Assembly: GCA_039621445.1 (NCBI GenBank)
Contig: CP154954.1
Span: forward strand, 13,324,716 to 13,388,715
Length of the DNA stretch: 64,000 nt
Direction: 5' to 3'
DNA from: Euglena gracilis
Taxonomy: Eukaryota
Under the pieces are notes generated by a model. It saw only the letters and a program-made list of their open reading frames with translations. It was not told the origin of the DNA and made no database searches. The position numbers and the translations under genes are program-made. Below are positions 12,201 to 54,200 of this stretch, piece after piece (within the stretch, counting starts at the first letter, position 1; each line of letters opens with the position of its first letter).

Positions 12201-15200
12201 GATTGGAACCAGGCTTCTTTTTTTAGACCCCCAAGGGGGGAGGGAGGGGTCTCCACCCACCCAGCCAAGCGCCGGGCTGAAAGCCTTACCCGTAAAATGC
12301 AATTTGGGGTAAAATCCGGGTAAAATTTTGTCCAAAAAAAGGGGGTTCGATCAAAGGTGGGTTGGTGGGCAACGGGTTCGATCAAAAGGTGTCCTCGAGT
12401 GGGGGGGGGGGTCGTTAAATATAGGAGAGCATTGGACATATGGGGGAAAGAAATCCCCTGGTTTGGTGTCGCCGCCTTGTCTGCCATGTCGCGCCGGCGG
12501 GTGCCCAACGGGGGCAGCTCCGGGATCCACGACAGCTGGTGCAGGTCCTGAAGGGGGTGCACCTGCGACGGCAGGGCATTGAGGAGGGTTTCACTTGTGC
12601 CAAAGGTCTGTTGAAGACTGGTGCCATGGCAGTCCCCTCAGCAAGAATCCTTCCTTGCTTCACGGATGCAGGAGCTGGCCTGAACAGCCAATGCAAATTA
12701 ACTCTTTGGGGGGATCAGTGTGCTAGTGTGCTATGGGCTGCCTTGCTGTCGCCACCAAGCACCTCTGGTCAGCCATGCCCTTGGGCCCAGCATCGCCCAG
12801 CATCGCCCAGCATCGCCCAGCATCGCCCAGCATCGCCTTTGGAGCCCTTGAAGGTGTACCTATAATGCCTGCTGCTTTTGCTCTAGCCCACTTTTGGCTA
12901 CTTTTGGTCACCTTTGGTTGCTTTTTGCCCACTTTGACCACTTTTGACTGCTTTTTGACCACGTTTGCCCACGTTTGCTGCCTTTTGACCAATTTTGACT
13001 GCTTCTTGACCACTTTTGCTGCTTTTTTGCCCACTTTTGCCCATTTCCAGCCACCTTTGCAGCTTTTTGATCACTTTTGCTGCTTTTTGACCCATAATGG
13101 CCAAAATGGGTGTAAAACTGGAGCTGTGTGGGAAAATTATCCCAAAAATGGTTCAATTCTCCAAAATATACAAAAAAAATGCCAGCATCGCCCAGCATCG
13201 CCCAGCATCGCCCTGCATCGCCCAGCATCGCCCAGCATCATCAGAGGTGCTTGGTTGCCACGACCCTTGTTTGGGGAGGGGATGTAGTTTGGGTTCATTT
13301 TTCAAAAAAAAATTTAAAATTTTCCCCAGCCAGCATCCCCATTCTCCCAGAATTGGTGACAATGCTGTGGTGGGTGGGGGCGAGTCAACCCACCTCCCCC
13401 CCCACCTCCCGGGTGGGGGGTCGACCCCCCCCAAGAGGCTTTCCTGTTCTGCTCTGGGGGGGAACCTGGTGGGGCTCTTGCCCCGGTGTCCTGATAACTT
13501 TGGGGGCAAGAAGAGAGAAAGATGGTTCCTACCCTAGCACCCCCAAGGCAAAACCTTGTCGAAAGTTGTGCCCCAATAACCTTGCAGGGGGCAAGGTGAA
13601 AAGAATGATTCCACAATTGAGCACCACGCCACATTATTTATTATTTGTCAGAAAACCCCCCCGGGAGGGTGAGTGGTGGGTCGACCCTCCAGGCCGGAGG
13701 CCCGGGTTTGGGTTTCGGCGCAAAGCGCCGACAATTTTTTGGGAAATGGCTTTAGATGGCCCGATTTTGGGTGGTCCCCCCCAGGGGGATCTGGAAACCA
13801 CGTTTTTCCCCAAAAAAAAACTCAAAAAATTCAGGTTTAAAAATTGGTATATTTAGGAGGGGGGTAAAAAACGAAGGTCAAAAACATTGGACCAAATTTT
13901 GGCACAGTCAAATTTTTCTGACATTTTTTTCCTGGGAATTTTTTGGATTTTCAATGGCATTTTTTTGCTTCAAAAACCTCTCGAAATCAAAATTTTGAGA
14001 AAATGTTGAAATGGAAGCTGTAGAAAAATGGGGTTCTGGGGTACCTCCTATATGGGTCCCAAAATGGATCAAAAAATGATGAAATGGGTCAAAAAAAAAC
14101 ACCCGGCGCCAAAGGCACCGGGAAAAATTGTGGGGGTACAAAAATTGGTGCTCCCGGAAATACGGGAAGAGGTGATAGGGGGGGGGTCGACCCCCCCCCA
14201 CCCACCACCCTGGCTGTTTGGCCGCTTCCCGTTCTGCCCTGCCCCCCCCCCCTGAAGGTATGCTTAGAGTCCGGGCTGGTTCCAATCAGACTTTTTTCAT
14301 ACCCCCCTGGCCGGGAACTTTGGCTGCCCAAATAATATACCCCCCCACCGCACCCCAGAGAGGGAAATCGAGAAAGGCAGAAGACGCTCAATTTCTGTCC
14401 AAAAACATTTTGGCAAGAATGACCGGAACCAAAAATTTATGGCAACACCAATGTCAAAAATGTGCAGAAATGCAGAAATTATGCAAAAAGTGCCCCTCTT
14501 TTGGGCGGGTCTGTTTGAGTTTGAAAAAAATTGCCCAAATATGCCCCCCCCCCCGGAAACTGTCACCTGCAGGTTGGCCGGTATCGAGGACCCTGACAAC
14601 TTCCTAACATGACAGGTTGGTCGGTACCAAGGACCCTGACAGTTTCTCGGGTGGGACCCTGATAGTTTCCCGGGTCAGCTGGTACCGACTGGTACCGGGG
14701 ACTCTGACTACTTCCTATGCTGACAGATTAGCCGGTAACGGGGATCCTGACAGTTTCCCGGGCGGGACCCTGACAGGTTCTCGGGCATAACAGTTTCCTG
14801 GGGGGGAATGAATTTGCCCCAAAGAATTTGCCCCAAATAATATATCCCCCCTGGCCCCCCGACTTTAACTGCCCAAATGATGTGGAGGCACCACACCGAC
14901 TGCGGCGCCACCTTTGGGGTGGCCAGCACGACCGACGGCTGCGGCAGTGCCACGCTCGGCATCGTCATCAGCGTGGTGGTCCGGAGCGGGCTGCTGCTGC
15001 TGGTAGCGTCCTCGTTCATCACCTGATGCGACCCGGGCAGGCCCTGGTGGGGGTGGCACTGTCCCTGAATAGTGGGTCAGCCCCCACACTTCCCAGGGCA
15101 TCAGCAGGGCTCAACACAAAAAAAAAATCCGGCTCCTTTTTCGCAACCAGTGAGGACCCCCAGGGGGGTCCAGCTCAGAGGCTGGAAAATTTGGGCTGGC

Positions 15201-51200: not shown

Positions 51201-54200
51201 AATCAAACAACATAACTCAGCGTCAATGCAACATTGGTCAAGGAGCAATTTGATAATATACAATCAAAATCAAAAAAAAAACCAAAAATGAAACTGCAAC
51301 GTAAAAAAAGCCGGAAATTCTTAAAAAAAAAATGCGCGAAAAAATCGAAAAAAAATGCGCAAAAAAAAATGCGAAAAAATCCGGAAAATACGCAAAAAAA
51401 ATGCGCAAAAATGCGAAAAAAATGCGAAACGCATTTCCCCCCCTGCACATGTTGATCAGGCACAAGCAACGGTTTAGAGTAACCCCCCCCCAAATAATGC
51501 CACCCCAGGGTATTATTTTTTTTCGCCCGAAGTCCCGGCCCGAGGGGGGGGGGGGGTATTATTTGGGTGGAGGGTTTATCAACATCTTGATTACTGCCAA
51601 TGCTGTTATCAATGTATTTCCATCCCTTATTTAATCCATCTGTCAGGTCGTTTATTCATTTGCATGGTCCGGCTGCTGCACAATCACACCTGTCATACAT
51701 CGCTGACAAACGAACTCGTAGTGCACCGGCATCACTGCAAAATCAAAATTGAATCGACAAAATAAAACCTCAAAACAATCTGGATTGTTGATGAGGGGCT
51801 CAGCTGTCCCCAGCAGGCTTTTGCTTAAGGACCCGGGGGGGGGGGGGGGCAAGGCTAGCCAATCGGCTAGACACAGGAAAAAGTGGACTAGCTAGACCCC
51901 CCTCCCCCCCCGGGGGGGGGGGGGGGGGGGGGTCCGGGGGTCCCCCCGACTGGAAAAAAATTTTCCTCCGGCGCTGCGCGCCAGAGGAAAAATGAGGTTT
52001 TTAACAGGTTTTTGGCTGATTTTGTTCCAAGAATTCCCAAAAATGGCCAAAAACGGGCATTTTTGGCCATTTTTGGGGGTCCCCAAAAAAAATTCGGCGC
52101 TTTGCACCGGTCACTGGAAAAAAAATTTCCACTAGCTAGCCCGGGGGGGTCGGGTGGCAGGTCGGGACCCAAAATTTTGAAAAAATTTTTTTCGCTCAAA
52201 AACACTTTTTTTCACTTCAGAACATCAAAAAAGGTGTTTTTTTTGGCGAAAAAAAATTTTCCGACCCGGACCCCCCCCCATGCCCCCCCTGGGTCCACCC
52301 ACTAGCCAAATTTGGACTAGCTGCAGTCCAGCCCCCCCCCCAGGGTTCGATATAAGGACAGGTGGGGGGGGGGGGTGGTCCGGACCCCCCCCTGCGGGCC
52401 AGAAGGGGGGGGGTGGGGGGACACCCCCCCCACCTAAACAGTGGCGCGGTCTGGGAGACCGAATTTCGGCCCGGCGCAAAGCGCCGGGCCAAAATTTTTT
52501 GACCCCCCAAAACGACCAAAAGTGCCATTTTGGGCACTTTTTGGGCAAAAATGTGCCAAAAAATGCAAAAAAAATTCGGCGCAAAGCGCCGGAGGAAAAA
52601 ATTGACCCTTTTTGGGGGGGTCCCGGGTACCCCCCGAGGGTCGGTCCGGACCCCCCTGGCAGGTGGGGGGGGGGGTGGTCCGGACCCCACCCCCCCGCGG
52701 GCCAGGAGGGGGGGGGGCGGGGGGGGACACCCCCCCACCTAAACCATGTACGCCCTCCTCATATCAAACCCTGCCCCCCCGGGGGGGTACTGCAATCCCT
52801 TAAGCAAAAGCCTGGTCCCCAGTGATGTGTCATGGGAAGTTTGCCAGGTCCATTCACATTCACATTCACAAAATTTGAACGAAAGTGCCATTCTGGCACG
52901 ATCTGCCCAAAATTGCGACTGTCTGACAAAAACATCAGCATCTTGAGTTTTCTGTCCCCAACAAACAACGCACACATCAAAGATACACCCAGTTTGCATT
53001 TTGAATGCACAAAAAATTTTAAAATCTTCTACAGAACGGAAACACACACACACACACACACACACACACACACACACACCTGTTGTCTGAGAGCATCACT
53101 AAGGGCAGATCGAGGTCAGTGGGAGGCAAATCAACAGAGGGGACCTGCACCCCCGTCATCAACCCCAGTTTGCCCGACTTTGCTGCGAGTTTGAAAAGGC
53201 AAATATGGCAAACGTTCAACGTTCATATGCACATACAGCAAGGTTTCATCACACAGTAATTCATCCACACGATGAAAATGACCACCAACCAAAACTAGAA
53301 AGGCGACCTTGTCTCCATTCTCAAATATCCACAAAATAGGAGGTCTCCTTCAAATGCCCATTTCTTATGACTCAATCATTCGACGATTAGTGACTGTGCA
53401 AATATTGTCTGAGTCAAATTAACTGAACCCATCTCCCCAACCTGGAAGTAAAAATTCAATACAAATCAACAGGTAGATTGAATTGAAATGGCCCTTTTTC
53501 CTTCTTTGCCATTTGGAAGACTTTAATTGCCAAAGATGAGGATCGTTGGGGTCAGTGCTCAACAGACATACTCAGAAAATGGATTGTGAGGTCGCACAGG
53601 CGGTCTGCCATATGGAACGTGACCGACCAGCCCATAGGTCCCAAGGTTGGAACAGCCTGAAAATGGGGGGGAGGGGCGACGTGTGACAGAAATTTGTTGT
53701 GCAGACAAACAATCAATTGGCACCCACCCACCCACCCATCCTGTGCCCACAAACTCCCACCAACCTCAGAGGACCCACCGACCACGTCTGGAGGTCACTT
53801 TTCAAAGAACCAGTCAGCCACGTTTTGAAACCAGCAACCCGCCCACCCCCCTCCTGGCAGGATGTCAGTTGCTCTGGCAGGGGGGGGGGGGGGGGGACTG
53901 CACACGGGCTGGTCAAAAAACTGCACTGCAAAAAACTGCATAAAACTGCATAAAACTGCAAAAAAACTGCACTTCAACAAAAAATAGCAAGCTGAAATGG
54001 TGTGCATATGCAAAACAACGTAAATTGCGACCACATGAGCACGCCCCAATTCACCTAACTTTTTTTTGCACGGCACTGGAGCTGATGACGATAAAAATGG
54101 AAAGAAAAAAATCAAGGTACACTGTGCATGGTTTTTCCTGCACTGAAATGCAACTCATGTGTTTGGATGCCGGGTCACAATGGTTTTCCTGCAACGAAAC

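What the first reader, a model, noticed from the sequence alone, without database searches (positions are those of the whole stretch)
12756..52814. hAT-like MITEs act as 'introners': the 8-bp TSD equals the 3+5 nt offset of euglenid nonconventional introns
Seen: at least nine elements from several unrelated families have CAG/CAA...CTG/TTG-type TIRs and 8-bp flanking duplications. Perfect TSDs occur at 18988, 34755, 43154 and 51814; 7/8 matches occur at 12756, 23271, 39831, 43922 and 52341. Established: euglenid nonconventional introns have paired ends with CAG at +4..+6 and CTG at -8..-6, and hAT elements make 8-bp TSDs with TIRs often starting CAG/TAG. Inference: 3 nt before CAG plus 5 nt after CTG is exactly one TSD, so splicing would remove the element plus one TSD and restore the pre-insertion mRNA. 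The intron consensus could therefore be a hAT footprint that makes exonic insertions harmless. A transposon origin for these introns has been suggested in general terms; I cannot check whether this exact 3+5=8 link has been published.
Basis: partly seen in the sequence, partly recalled or inferred. Interest (0 to 1): 0.92.

Follow-up and report, generated by a model that had tools for sequence, protein, structure and literature searches.

The report
MITEs matching the euglenid odd-intron code
The window holds a dozen small DNA transposons whose CAG...CTG ends and 8-base target duplications fit the published rule for Euglena's odd introns, but nothing here shows that these copies sit in genes or are spliced.

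Summary
All nine elements exist at the stated coordinates with the stated inverted ends and 8-bp duplications (4 perfect, 5 at 7/8). I found three more (5053, 15863, 26361). Among 1,665 non-repetitive inverted-end pairs, exact flanking repeats of 8 bp occur 4 times against 0.026 expected, and never at 9-12 bp.

The duplicated 8-mers differ between copies of one family and favour GTnnnnAC. That is the target type of the hAT element Hermes. No transposase was found.

The 3+5=8 arithmetic matches the genetically defined Euglena code N3-CAG...CTG-N5-6|purine. Eight of 12 elements carry the exact motif; 7 of 12 meet the full code in at least one orientation. One published strain-specific new intron has 8-nt junction repeats.

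Not shown:
- No element lies in a recognisable exon.
- The organism is not identified.

MITE origin of these introns, including TIR/TSD labelling, is already in print. The hAT link and the exact 8-nt fit were not found in 8 literature searches.

Verdict: real elements, a plausible and testable refinement of a known hypothesis, unproven here.

The parts
5045..6062 (.). E5053: 1002-bp element 5053-6054, TIR CAGGAACCTGTCA.../...CTG, with 8-bp duplications GGCGTGAC/GGCGGGAC (7/8).
12748..13261 (.). E12756: 498-bp element, TIR CAAGCACCTCTG (12/12), duplications GTCGCCAC/GTTGCCAC (7/8). Subterminal 10-bp arrays (CCCAGCATCG)n at both ends. CAA..TTG fails the CDG/CH'G motif.
15855..16154 (.). E15863: 284-bp near-palindromic element, TIR GGCAGCCCGAAACT (20/20 terminal bases paired), perfect duplication ATATAAAA. 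GG terminus, so Merlin-like and not CAG-type.
18980..20787 (.). E18988: 1792-bp element, TIR CAGGCACC..., perfect duplication GTTGGTTT. Subterminal (GCCATTTTAG)n arrays at both ends and a 16.5% GC core at 19600-20300.
23263..23969 (.). E23271: 691-bp element, TIR CAGGCAAGGACAG (12/12), duplications CTCGTGGG/CCCGTGGG (7/8). Subterminal (TCCGGTGGGA)n arrays at both ends. Meets the full intron code in both orientations.
26353..26600 (.). E26361: 232-bp element, CATGCTTGTGCTTA.../...TAAGCACAAGCCTG, perfect duplication GAGGGGGG. The 5' CAG has become CAT.
34747..35050 (.). E34755 (family C): 288-bp element, CAGGTTTCTTTT.../...AAAGAAGCCTG, perfect duplication GTGCCAAG. The RNA fold puts the terminal stem at CAG/CUG.
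39823..40417 (.). E39831 (family B): 579-bp element, CAGGCTTCGATATAAGG..., duplications GGGCTCCC/GGGCCCCC (7/8). Motif met, but no purine after the 3' spacer in either orientation.
43146..43582 (.). E43154 (family A): 421-bp element, TIR CAGGCTTTTGCTTAAGG (17/20), perfect duplication GCCCCCTC. Full intron code on the minus strand. The RNA fold closes the ends at CAG/CUG (z = -8.7).
43914..44238 (.). E43922 (family C): 309-bp element, CAGGCTTCTTTT.../...GAAGCCCA, duplications GACAGGAC/GACAAGAC (7/8). The 3' terminus is degenerate, so the motif is not met.
51806..52822 (.). E51814 (family A): 1001-bp copy, perfect duplication GTCCCCAG. It equals E43154 plus two internal insertions.
52333..52781 (.). 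E52341 (family B) nested inside E51814: 433 bp, CAGGGTTCGATATAAGG..., inserted in a C run. The insertion-free copy has 9 C; the filled copy has 9 C before and 7 C after the element. The duplication is low in information.
10241..10509 (.). Unpaired CAGGCTTTTG end followed by a family-C-like fragment (10284-10509). It is one of 9 CAGGCTTYTK ends that are not termini of the 12 elements (639-648, 10241, 12210, 30331-30340, 39116, 40459, 41056-41065, 45987-45996, 50216). No partner end with a matching 8-mer was found for any of the 9.

Best explanation
The window is gene-poor, repeat-rich eukaryotic DNA. It carries at least 12 non-autonomous cut-and-paste DNA transposons (MITE-like, 232-1792 bp) from at least 7 sequence families. 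Eleven begin CAG, CAA or CAT and end CTG, TTG or CCA; most begin CAGGC. All 12 are flanked by an 8-bp duplication of the target.

Shown: the 8-mers differ between copies of one family, so they come from the target and not from the element. They favour GTnnnnAC.

Inferred: a hAT-like DDE transposase made 8-bp staggered cuts. No transposase was seen.

Deduced from published genetics (Nomura et al. 2025): Euglena removes any transcribed segment of the form N3-CAG-(about 12 bp stem)-CTG-N5(-6) followed by a purine. A CAG...CTG MITE with an 8-bp duplication t1..t8 presents exactly this form in either orientation. The 3-nt spacer is t6-t8 of the left copy and the 5-nt spacer is t1-t5 of the right copy. 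Excision would therefore remove the element plus 8 nt and restore the pre-insertion RNA. It would work only where t6, read in the transcribed direction, is a purine.

The published Y|R at both intron junctions would then be two copies of the same target dinucleotide t5|t6.

The copies in this window appear to lie outside coding exons. They are best read as the free-living genomic population of the element type that seeds nonconventional introns, not as working introns.
For: Structure and statistics:
- All 12 elements have a TIR and an 8-bp duplication: 6 perfect, 6 at 7/8.
- Exact flanking repeats occur 4 times at L=8 against 0.026 expected, and 0 times at L=9-12, among 1,665 TIR pairs.
- CAGGCTTYTK occurs 15 times against 1.19 expected.
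- Duplications differ within families: A has GCCCCCTC and GTCCCCAG; C has GTGCCAAG and GACAGGAC.
- One family-B copy is inserted inside a family-A copy whose sister copy lacks it.

hAT likeness:
- Target bias: G at the outer position in 15 of 24 half-sites (expected 6.0, P=1e-4) and T at the second position in 12 of 24 (P=0.008).
- Hermes gives canonical 8-bp duplications with consensus nTnnnnAn, many of them GT....AC (PMC2803484, passages and Table 8).
- Three elements have subterminal repeat arrays.

Intron code:
- The code is N3-CDG...CH'G-N5-6|R. The 5' spacer is strict at 3 nt and the 3' optimum is 5 nt. Synthetic 50-bp introns built on these rules are spliced precisely (PMC12501133 sections 8, 10, 11).
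- Eight of 12 elements have the exact motif with 10-12 of 12 stem pairs. Seven of 12 meet the full code in at least one orientation.
- RNA folds of two elements place the closing stem at CAG/CUG.

Independent published support:
- The only strain-specific, recently gained nonconventional intron described (E. agilis ACOI 323 gapC intron 4) has eight-nucleotide direct repeats at its junctions (PMC4770533 section 7).
- 84.4% of E. agilis introns have junction direct repeats.
- Y/R is reported at both junctions.
Against: - No element is shown to be transcribed, exonic or spliced.
- 30 of 30 tested ORFs have no Pfam family.
- ORFs spanning the junction after virtual excision (83-250 aa) are ordinary for this DNA; the random-position median is 139 aa.
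- Period-3 signal is weak, with a maximum of 5.6.
- Four of 12 elements fail the CAG/CTG motif and 5 of 12 fail the full code.
- The fifth TIR base is mostly C. The hAT consensus YARNG, which I recall and did not check, has G there.
- No transposase of any kind was found, and no genome is held.
- Merlin elements with 8-bp duplications are documented in E. gracilis, so 8 bp is not unique to hAT.
- The 3' spacer tolerates 6 nt, so the machinery's ruler is not strictly 8.
- The authors who saw the 8-nt repeat noted it was longer than in the other introns they analysed, and they favoured double-strand-break repair.
- No call identifies the organism as a euglenid.
Confidence: 0.6

Rival explanations
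1. These are ordinary MITEs and the fit is coincidental. They have nothing to do with nonconventional introns. Any TIR element starting CAG forms a stem, and 3+5=8 is a numerical accident. Nonconventional introns arise otherwise, for example by double-strand-break repair.
For: - No copy here is in a demonstrable exon.
- CAG-terminated elements with 8-bp duplications occur in many eukaryotes (recalled).
- The 3' spacer is flexible at 5-6 nt.
- The authors of the 8-nt repeat case proposed break repair.
Against: - The code needs exactly what these elements supply: CAG/CTG at the base of a stem of about 12 bp.
- The one documented new intron has an 8-nt repeat.
- 84.4% of E. agilis introns have junction repeats.
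- Specialists already read the intron ends as TIR plus TSD.
Confidence: 0.22
2. The elements are mobilised by a Merlin (IS1595-like) transposase or another 8-bp-TSD superfamily, not by hAT. The link to the intron code could still hold.
For: - Two Merlin families with 8-bp duplications and an intact DDE motif are reported in E. gracilis (PMC8101967, passages).
- Three searches naming hAT with Euglena returned only that Merlin paper, and its passages shown to me mention hAT only in a list of superfamilies.
- E15863 has a GG terminus and an 8-bp duplication.
Against: - Merlin TIRs have a conserved terminal 5'-GG. Eleven of 12 elements here start CA.
- The GTnnnnAC target bias is that of Hermes/hAT.
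Confidence: 0.15
3. Intron first. Nonconventional introns spread as RNA (excised circles, reverse splicing, reverse transcription), and the intergenic 'MITEs' are dispersed intron copies.
For: - Nonconventional introns are excised as full-length circles (as summarised).
- The circle would carry the 5+3 nt between CTG and CAG.
Against: - Reverse-spliced insertion would carry the donor's 8 nt and would not duplicate the new target.
- Here each copy has its own 8-mer present on both sides, perfect in 6 of 12. That is the signature of staggered DNA cleavage.
- One copy is inserted inside another MITE in non-coding DNA.
Confidence: 0.04

Closest known systems
Euglenid nonconventional introns: Milanowski et al. 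2014 and 2016; code N3-CDG...CH'G-N5-6|R of Nomura et al. 2025
   Same: CAG and CTG sit at the base of a terminal stem. A 3-nt and a 5-nt spacer would be supplied by the 8-bp duplication. Length range and lack of coding content agree. Eight of 12 elements meet the motif and 7 of 12 the full code.
   Different: These copies are not shown to be in genes or removed from RNA. Published introns mostly have junction repeats shorter than 8 nt.
hAT-superfamily non-autonomous elements (Ac/Ds, hobo, Hermes type)
   Same: 8-bp target duplication, termini starting CAG, GTnnnnAC / nTnnnnAn target bias, and subterminal repeats in three elements.
   Different: No transposase was seen. The fifth terminal base is mostly C. 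In three elements the subterminal repeats are 10-bp tandem arrays in the same orientation at both ends.
Introner elements of Micromonas, Aureococcus, dinoflagellates and Fritillaria, as reviewed in PMC11282704
   Same: The logic is the same. A TIR/TSD transposon becomes an intron because splicing removes the element plus one duplication copy.
   Different: Those use the spliceosome, with splice sites carried by the element or co-opted from a 3-5 nt duplication. Here the removal rule would be structural (stem plus fixed offsets), spliceosome-independent and symmetric for both orientations.
Merlin transposons of Euglena gracilis (PMC8101967)
   Same: 8-bp target duplications in a euglenid genome. 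E15863 has the GG terminus.
   Different: Eleven of 12 elements start CA, not GG. No IS1595-type DDE ORF was found in the 30 ORFs scanned.

Membership tests
MITE (non-autonomous TIR transposon) | Terminal inverted repeats flanked by a target-site duplication of fixed length | tested here: met
   12 of 12 elements have TIRs with 8-bp flanks, 6 perfect and 6 at 7/8. Enrichment at L=8 only.
MITE (non-autonomous TIR transposon) | Short, non-coding and multi-copy | tested here: met
   Lengths are 232-1792 bp. ORFs inside elements have no Pfam family. Families A, B and C have 2 or more copies in 64 kb. There are 15 CAGGCTTYTK ends against 1.19 expected. Genome-wide copy number is not testable.
hAT superfamily | 8-bp target-site duplication | tested here: met
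hAT superfamily | Target consensus nTnnnnAn | tested here: met
   T at the second position in 12 of 24 half-sites (P=0.008). G at the outer position in 15 of 24 (P=1e-4). The Hermes consensus comes from PMC2803484. The sample is only 12 sites.
hAT superfamily | TIR termini 5'-YARNG (consensus recalled, not from a call) | tested here: inconclusive
   CAG, CAA or CAT is met at the 5' end in 11 of 12. The fifth base is C in most, and G only at both ends of 52341 and the 3' ends of 39831 and 43922.
hAT superfamily | Autonomous partner encoding a hAT transposase (BED finger, DDE, hAT dimerisation domain) | not testable with these tools
   No genome is held. 30 window ORFs gave no Pfam family.
Euglenid nonconventional intron | N3-CDG ... 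CH'G-N5-6 followed by a purine, with a base-paired stem after CAG and before CTG | tested here: met
   Motif in 8 of 12. Full code (motif, at least 10 of 12 stem pairs, purine after N5 or N6) in 7 of 12 in at least one orientation. Folds. Five of 12 fail.
Euglenid nonconventional intron | Lies within a transcribed gene and is absent from the mature RNA | not testable with these tools
Indirect tests gave no sign of exons.
Euglenid nonconventional intron | Host is a euglenid or diplonemid | tested here: inconclusive
   No rRNA, tRNA, snRNA or conserved protein was found in the window. The only hint is that the (GT/GC)n and (AT/AC)n microsatellites are of the types reported in E. gracilis introns.
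Merlin superfamily | TIR with conserved terminal 5'-GG and an 8-9 bp duplication | tested here: not met
   Eleven of 12 start CA. Only E15863 starts GG. The definition comes from PMC8101967.
Introner (multi-copy intron family) | Many near-identical copies that serve as introns in different genes | not tested
   This needs a genome annotation and RNA data, which are not available here.

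The most novel reading that the evidence does not exclude
The euglenid nonconventional splicing code (N3-CAG...CTG-N5|R) is the RNA-level mirror image of one transposon type: CAG-terminated, hAT-like elements with an 8-bp duplication. 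The excision machinery cuts 3 nt before and 5 nt after the TIR stem because only that sum erases an insertion exactly. This makes exonic transposition nearly harmless in either orientation. It would explain why about 72% of Euglena introns are of this kind, why most are 'slidable', and why both junctions read Y|R. The hundreds of thousands of nonconventional introns would be decayed MITE-plus-duplication units, and elements like those in this window would be their living source.
Probability: 0.45. Interest if true: 0.85.

Novelty: new variant of a known kind. Interest (0 to 1): 0.62.

Why it matters
The origin and removal mechanism of euglenid nonconventional introns has been open since the 1990s. 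A MITE origin has been proposed since 2014, but the 2014 paper stated that no transposable elements had then been identified in euglenid genomes. Later papers still call the origin unclear.

If the reading is right, this window shows what was missing:
- Concrete element families whose termini and duplication length reproduce the genetically defined splicing code.
- A candidate superfamily.
- A one-line quantitative prediction: 8-nt identity in a fixed register, strongest in young introns. It can be checked at once on the 649,158 published E. agilis junctions.

It would also be the first introner-like system in which the host's excision rule is matched to the transposon's duplication length and does not rely on spliceosomal sites.

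Tried and rejected
RNA and DNA read evidence:
- The look-up of sequencing runs listed no RNA holder.
- No whole genome is held.

Gene and organism identification:
- Pfam on 30 ORFs gave 0 families.
- Rfam gave 0 matches and tRNA search 0.
- The period-3 scan was weak.
- ORFs read by eye look non-genic.
- Virtual excision of 43922 gives a 94-aa frame on the minus strand across the junction. This is within the random range, and that element fails the code anyway, so I ran no protein search on it.

Other searches:
- A metagenome scan with the family-A 19-nt terminus gave 4 hits, none with a partner arm, so they are chance matches.
- Earlier findings of this scan gave nothing relevant.

Scans that misled:
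- Outward extension of TIRs swallowed complementary duplication ends and mis-set the boundaries.
- The first TIR/TSD scan and the relaxed 8-mer-first scan were swamped by microsatellites and internal repeats.
- The 9 CAGGCTTYTK ends outside the 12 elements have no partner with a matching 8-mer.

The nested 52341 insertion as an empty-site proof: the C-run counts (9 against 9+7) fit a 7-8 bp duplication but are too low in complexity to count.

Literature: 8 searches. Searches combined Euglena or Euglena gracilis with hAT. One search, which also required 'target site duplication' and 'intron', found no paper. Searches found only the Merlin paper. The library lacks most subscription journals. Supplements were closed, including Table S3 of PMC4770533 and the SI figures of PMC12501133 on junction-repeat lengths. 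The link may therefore exist in print unseen.

Full report
**What is there**

Reading the claimed sites and a scripted check confirm all nine elements at the stated first bases. Each has a partner arm (0-2 mismatches in 12) and an 8-bp flanking repeat. The repeat is perfect at 18988, 34755, 43154 and 51814. It is 7/8 at 12756, 23271, 39831, 43922 and 52341.

Three details need qualifying:
- The 52341 repeat is a C homopolymer.
- The 3' end of 43922 has decayed to ...CCCA.
- 12756 has CAA...TTG.

I found three more elements with 8-bp repeats:
- 5053-6054 (7/8).
- 15863-16146 (perfect; TIR starts GGCAG).
- 26361-26592 (perfect; the 5' CAG is mutated to CAT).

**Is it more than chance?**

I listed all inverted-end pairs 50-3000 bp apart with at least 12 of 14 paired bases and the three terminal bases paired. 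I removed low-complexity arms and the microsatellite at 62.8-63.8 kb, which left 1,665 pairs. I then asked, for each register L, whether the L bases outside the two arms are a direct repeat.
- Exact repeats occur 4 times at L=8 (expected 0.026) and 0 times at L=9, 10, 11 and 12.
- With one mismatch allowed there are 10 at L=8 (expected 0.64). Eight are the elements above and two are A/T-rich internal hairpins.
- Several L=6 rows are the same elements shifted by one base, because position 8 of the repeat is often C and position 1 is often G.
- Elements 34755, 43922 and 26361 failed this scan's filters and rest.
- The terminal word CAGGCTTYTK occurs 15 times against 1.19 expected, and 0 of 100 shuffles reach 15. 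Nine of these ends lie outside the 12 elements, and none of the nine has a partner end with a matching 8-mer.

**Families and signs of transposition**

Self-BLAST groups the elements:
- 43154 with 51814 (89% identity).
- 39831 with 52341 (77%).
- 34755 with 43922 and fragments at 10284-10509 and 49941-50111 (71-73%).
- 5053, 12756, 18988 and 23271 are singletons.

The 8-mers differ between copies of one family, so they derive from the target and not from the element. Aligning the two family-A copies shows that 51814 equals 43154 plus two internal insertions. One of these is the family-B element 52341. Its C-run arithmetic (9 C in the empty copy; 9 before and 7 after in the filled copy) is compatible with 7-8 bp but is not informative.

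**Which transposase?**

- Across the 12 duplications, read on both strands (24 half-sites), G is outermost in 15 (expected 6.0, P=1e-4). T is second in 12 (expected 6.0, P=0.008). That gives a GTnnnnAC-like palindromic target.
- Passages and Table 8 of PMC2803484 give canonical 8-bp duplications with consensus nTnnnnAn for the hAT element Hermes. Many of its sites are of the GT....AC form.
- Three elements (12756, 18988, 23271) carry subterminal 10-bp tandem arrays at both ends.
- Against hAT: the fifth terminal base is mostly C. The YARNG consensus is recalled, not checked. No transposase was found.
- Merlin elements with 8-bp duplications are documented in E. gracilis, but their TIRs end in GG (PMC8101967 passages). 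Only 15863 fits that.

'hAT-like' is therefore the best label, held provisionally.

**The link to nonconventional introns**

CAG at +4..+6 pairs with CTG at -8..-6 (PMC11282704 and PMC6221363 passages). Nomura et al. 2025 (PMC12501133) supply the rest. I read the abstract, sections 5, 8, 10 and 11, and passages of the discussion:
- The code was defined by knock-in genetics as 5'-N3CDG-/-CH'GN5-6|R.
- A 1-bp change of the 5' spacer abolishes splicing.
- The 3' optimum is 5 nt, and 6 nt is tolerated.
- Pairing of about 12 bp next to the motif is needed.
- Fully synthetic 50-bp introns built on these rules are removed precisely.

For an element with duplication t1..t8, the left spacer is t6-t8 and the right spacer is t1-t5. 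The rule therefore removes the element plus 8 nt and leaves one copy of the target. Because the termini are symmetric, this holds in both orientations. The only further condition is a purine at t6 in the transcribed direction.

Applying the code to the 12 elements:
- 8 have the exact CAG/CTG motif with 10-12 of 12 stem pairs.
- 7 meet the full code in at least one orientation (5053, 18988, 23271, 34755, 43154, 51814, 52341).
- 5 do not.

RNA folds of 43154 (minus strand, z = -8.7) and 34755 (z = -3.1) close the ends in a stem that starts at CAG/CUG.

**Published facts that fit**

- Milanowski et al. 2016 (PMC4770533, section 7) describe a gapC intron present in one E. agilis strain only, hence recent. 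It has all the nonconventional features and 'eight nucleotide direct repeats' at the junctions, longer than in their other introns. They suggested break repair. A fresh insertion with an 8-bp duplication predicts exactly this.
- 84.4% of E. agilis introns have junction repeats.
- Y/R is reported at both junctions. In this model these are two copies of t5|t6.

**What is not shown**

- No copy here can be placed in an exon. 30 of 30 ORFs tested have no Pfam family.
- No Rfam family or tRNA was found.
- Junction-spanning ORFs after virtual excision are 83-250 aa, against a random-position median of 139 aa and a 90th percentile of 266 aa.
- Period-3 signal is weak.
- The one element with open frames on both sides (43922) fails the code.
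- No read evidence could be obtained and no genome is held. Splicing, copy number, empty alleles and the autonomous partner all remain untested.
- No call identifies the organism. The only hint is that the microsatellite types match those reported in E. gracilis introns.

**Novelty**

- MITE origin was proposed in 2014 (PMC3935182 passages) and repeated in 2016, 2018, 2024 and 2025.
- The 2024 review labels CAG/CTG as a TIR and the junction repeats as a TSD.
- The logic that splicing removes the element plus one duplication copy is established for introners.
- None of the passages I saw gives a duplication length for euglenids, names a superfamily or states the 3+5=8 fit.
- Of three searches that combined Euglena or Euglena gracilis with hAT, one search also required 'target site duplication' and 'intron' and found nothing. 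Searches found only the Merlin paper.
- The library omits most subscription journals, and supplements were closed.

I rate this a new variant of a known kind: a sharp, cheap-to-test refinement, not demonstrated by this window.

Noticed in passing
12786-12835 and 13185-13240; 19020-19095 and 20621-20766; 23303-23402 and 23900-23945: Three otherwise unrelated CAG-type elements (12756, 18988, 23271) share one architecture. Each has a short TIR followed by a tandem array of a 10-bp unit at both ends, in the same orientation, with a different unit in each element (CCCAGCATCG, GCCATTTTAG, TCCGGTGGGA). The period is one helical turn, so these may be transposase-binding arrays. Loose arrays of GCCATTTTAG also occur at 17052-17180 and 45788-45861.
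   Followed up: partly
15863-16146: A 284-bp element that is 87% self-complementary over its whole length. It has GG termini and a perfect AT-rich 8-bp duplication (ATATAAAA). It fits the Merlin description (terminal GG, 8-9 bp duplication) better than hAT.
   Followed up: partly
19600-20300: The core of element 18988 is 16.5% GC, against 36-58% in 2-kb windows across the window. It may be a captured or nested AT-rich segment, possibly of organellar origin. No Pfam family was found in its one long ORF.
   Followed up: partly
52133-52296: A second internal insertion of about 165 bp in the family-A copy 51814, relative to its sister 43154. It is itself palindromic and G/C-run rich. It has no clean 8-bp duplication and replaces about 9 bp of the sister copy.
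   Followed up: no
56650-59025: A dense nest of long inverted repeats. Arms 56745-56777 and 58988-59020 are 33 nt and 94% complementary, with a third arm at 57306-57338. Hairpins of 63, 44 and 41 nt are also present, together with 32-bp tandem arrays at 56830-56966 and 57653-57772. No target duplication was seen and its ORFs have no Pfam family. This is a different kind of repeat from the CAG-type elements.
   Followed up: partly
1594-2258, 21420-22079, 35475-36324, 62982-63600: Long microsatellites of 0.6-0.85 kb: (GT)n and (GTGC)n types, and (TGTA)n / (TATATACA)n. These are the same GT/GC and AT/AC types reported inside E. gracilis introns.
   Followed up: no
e.g. 43175-43195, 43525-43550, 51835-51850, 51905-51935: Many elements contain C-run/G-run palindromes (C8-15 followed by G8-20) and the palindrome GGCGC(T/A)(T/A)CGCGCC, often with a 'GGCCATTTTTGG' / 'AAAATGGCC' motif between them. 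This internal module is shared across families A and B (69% identity).
   Followed up: no
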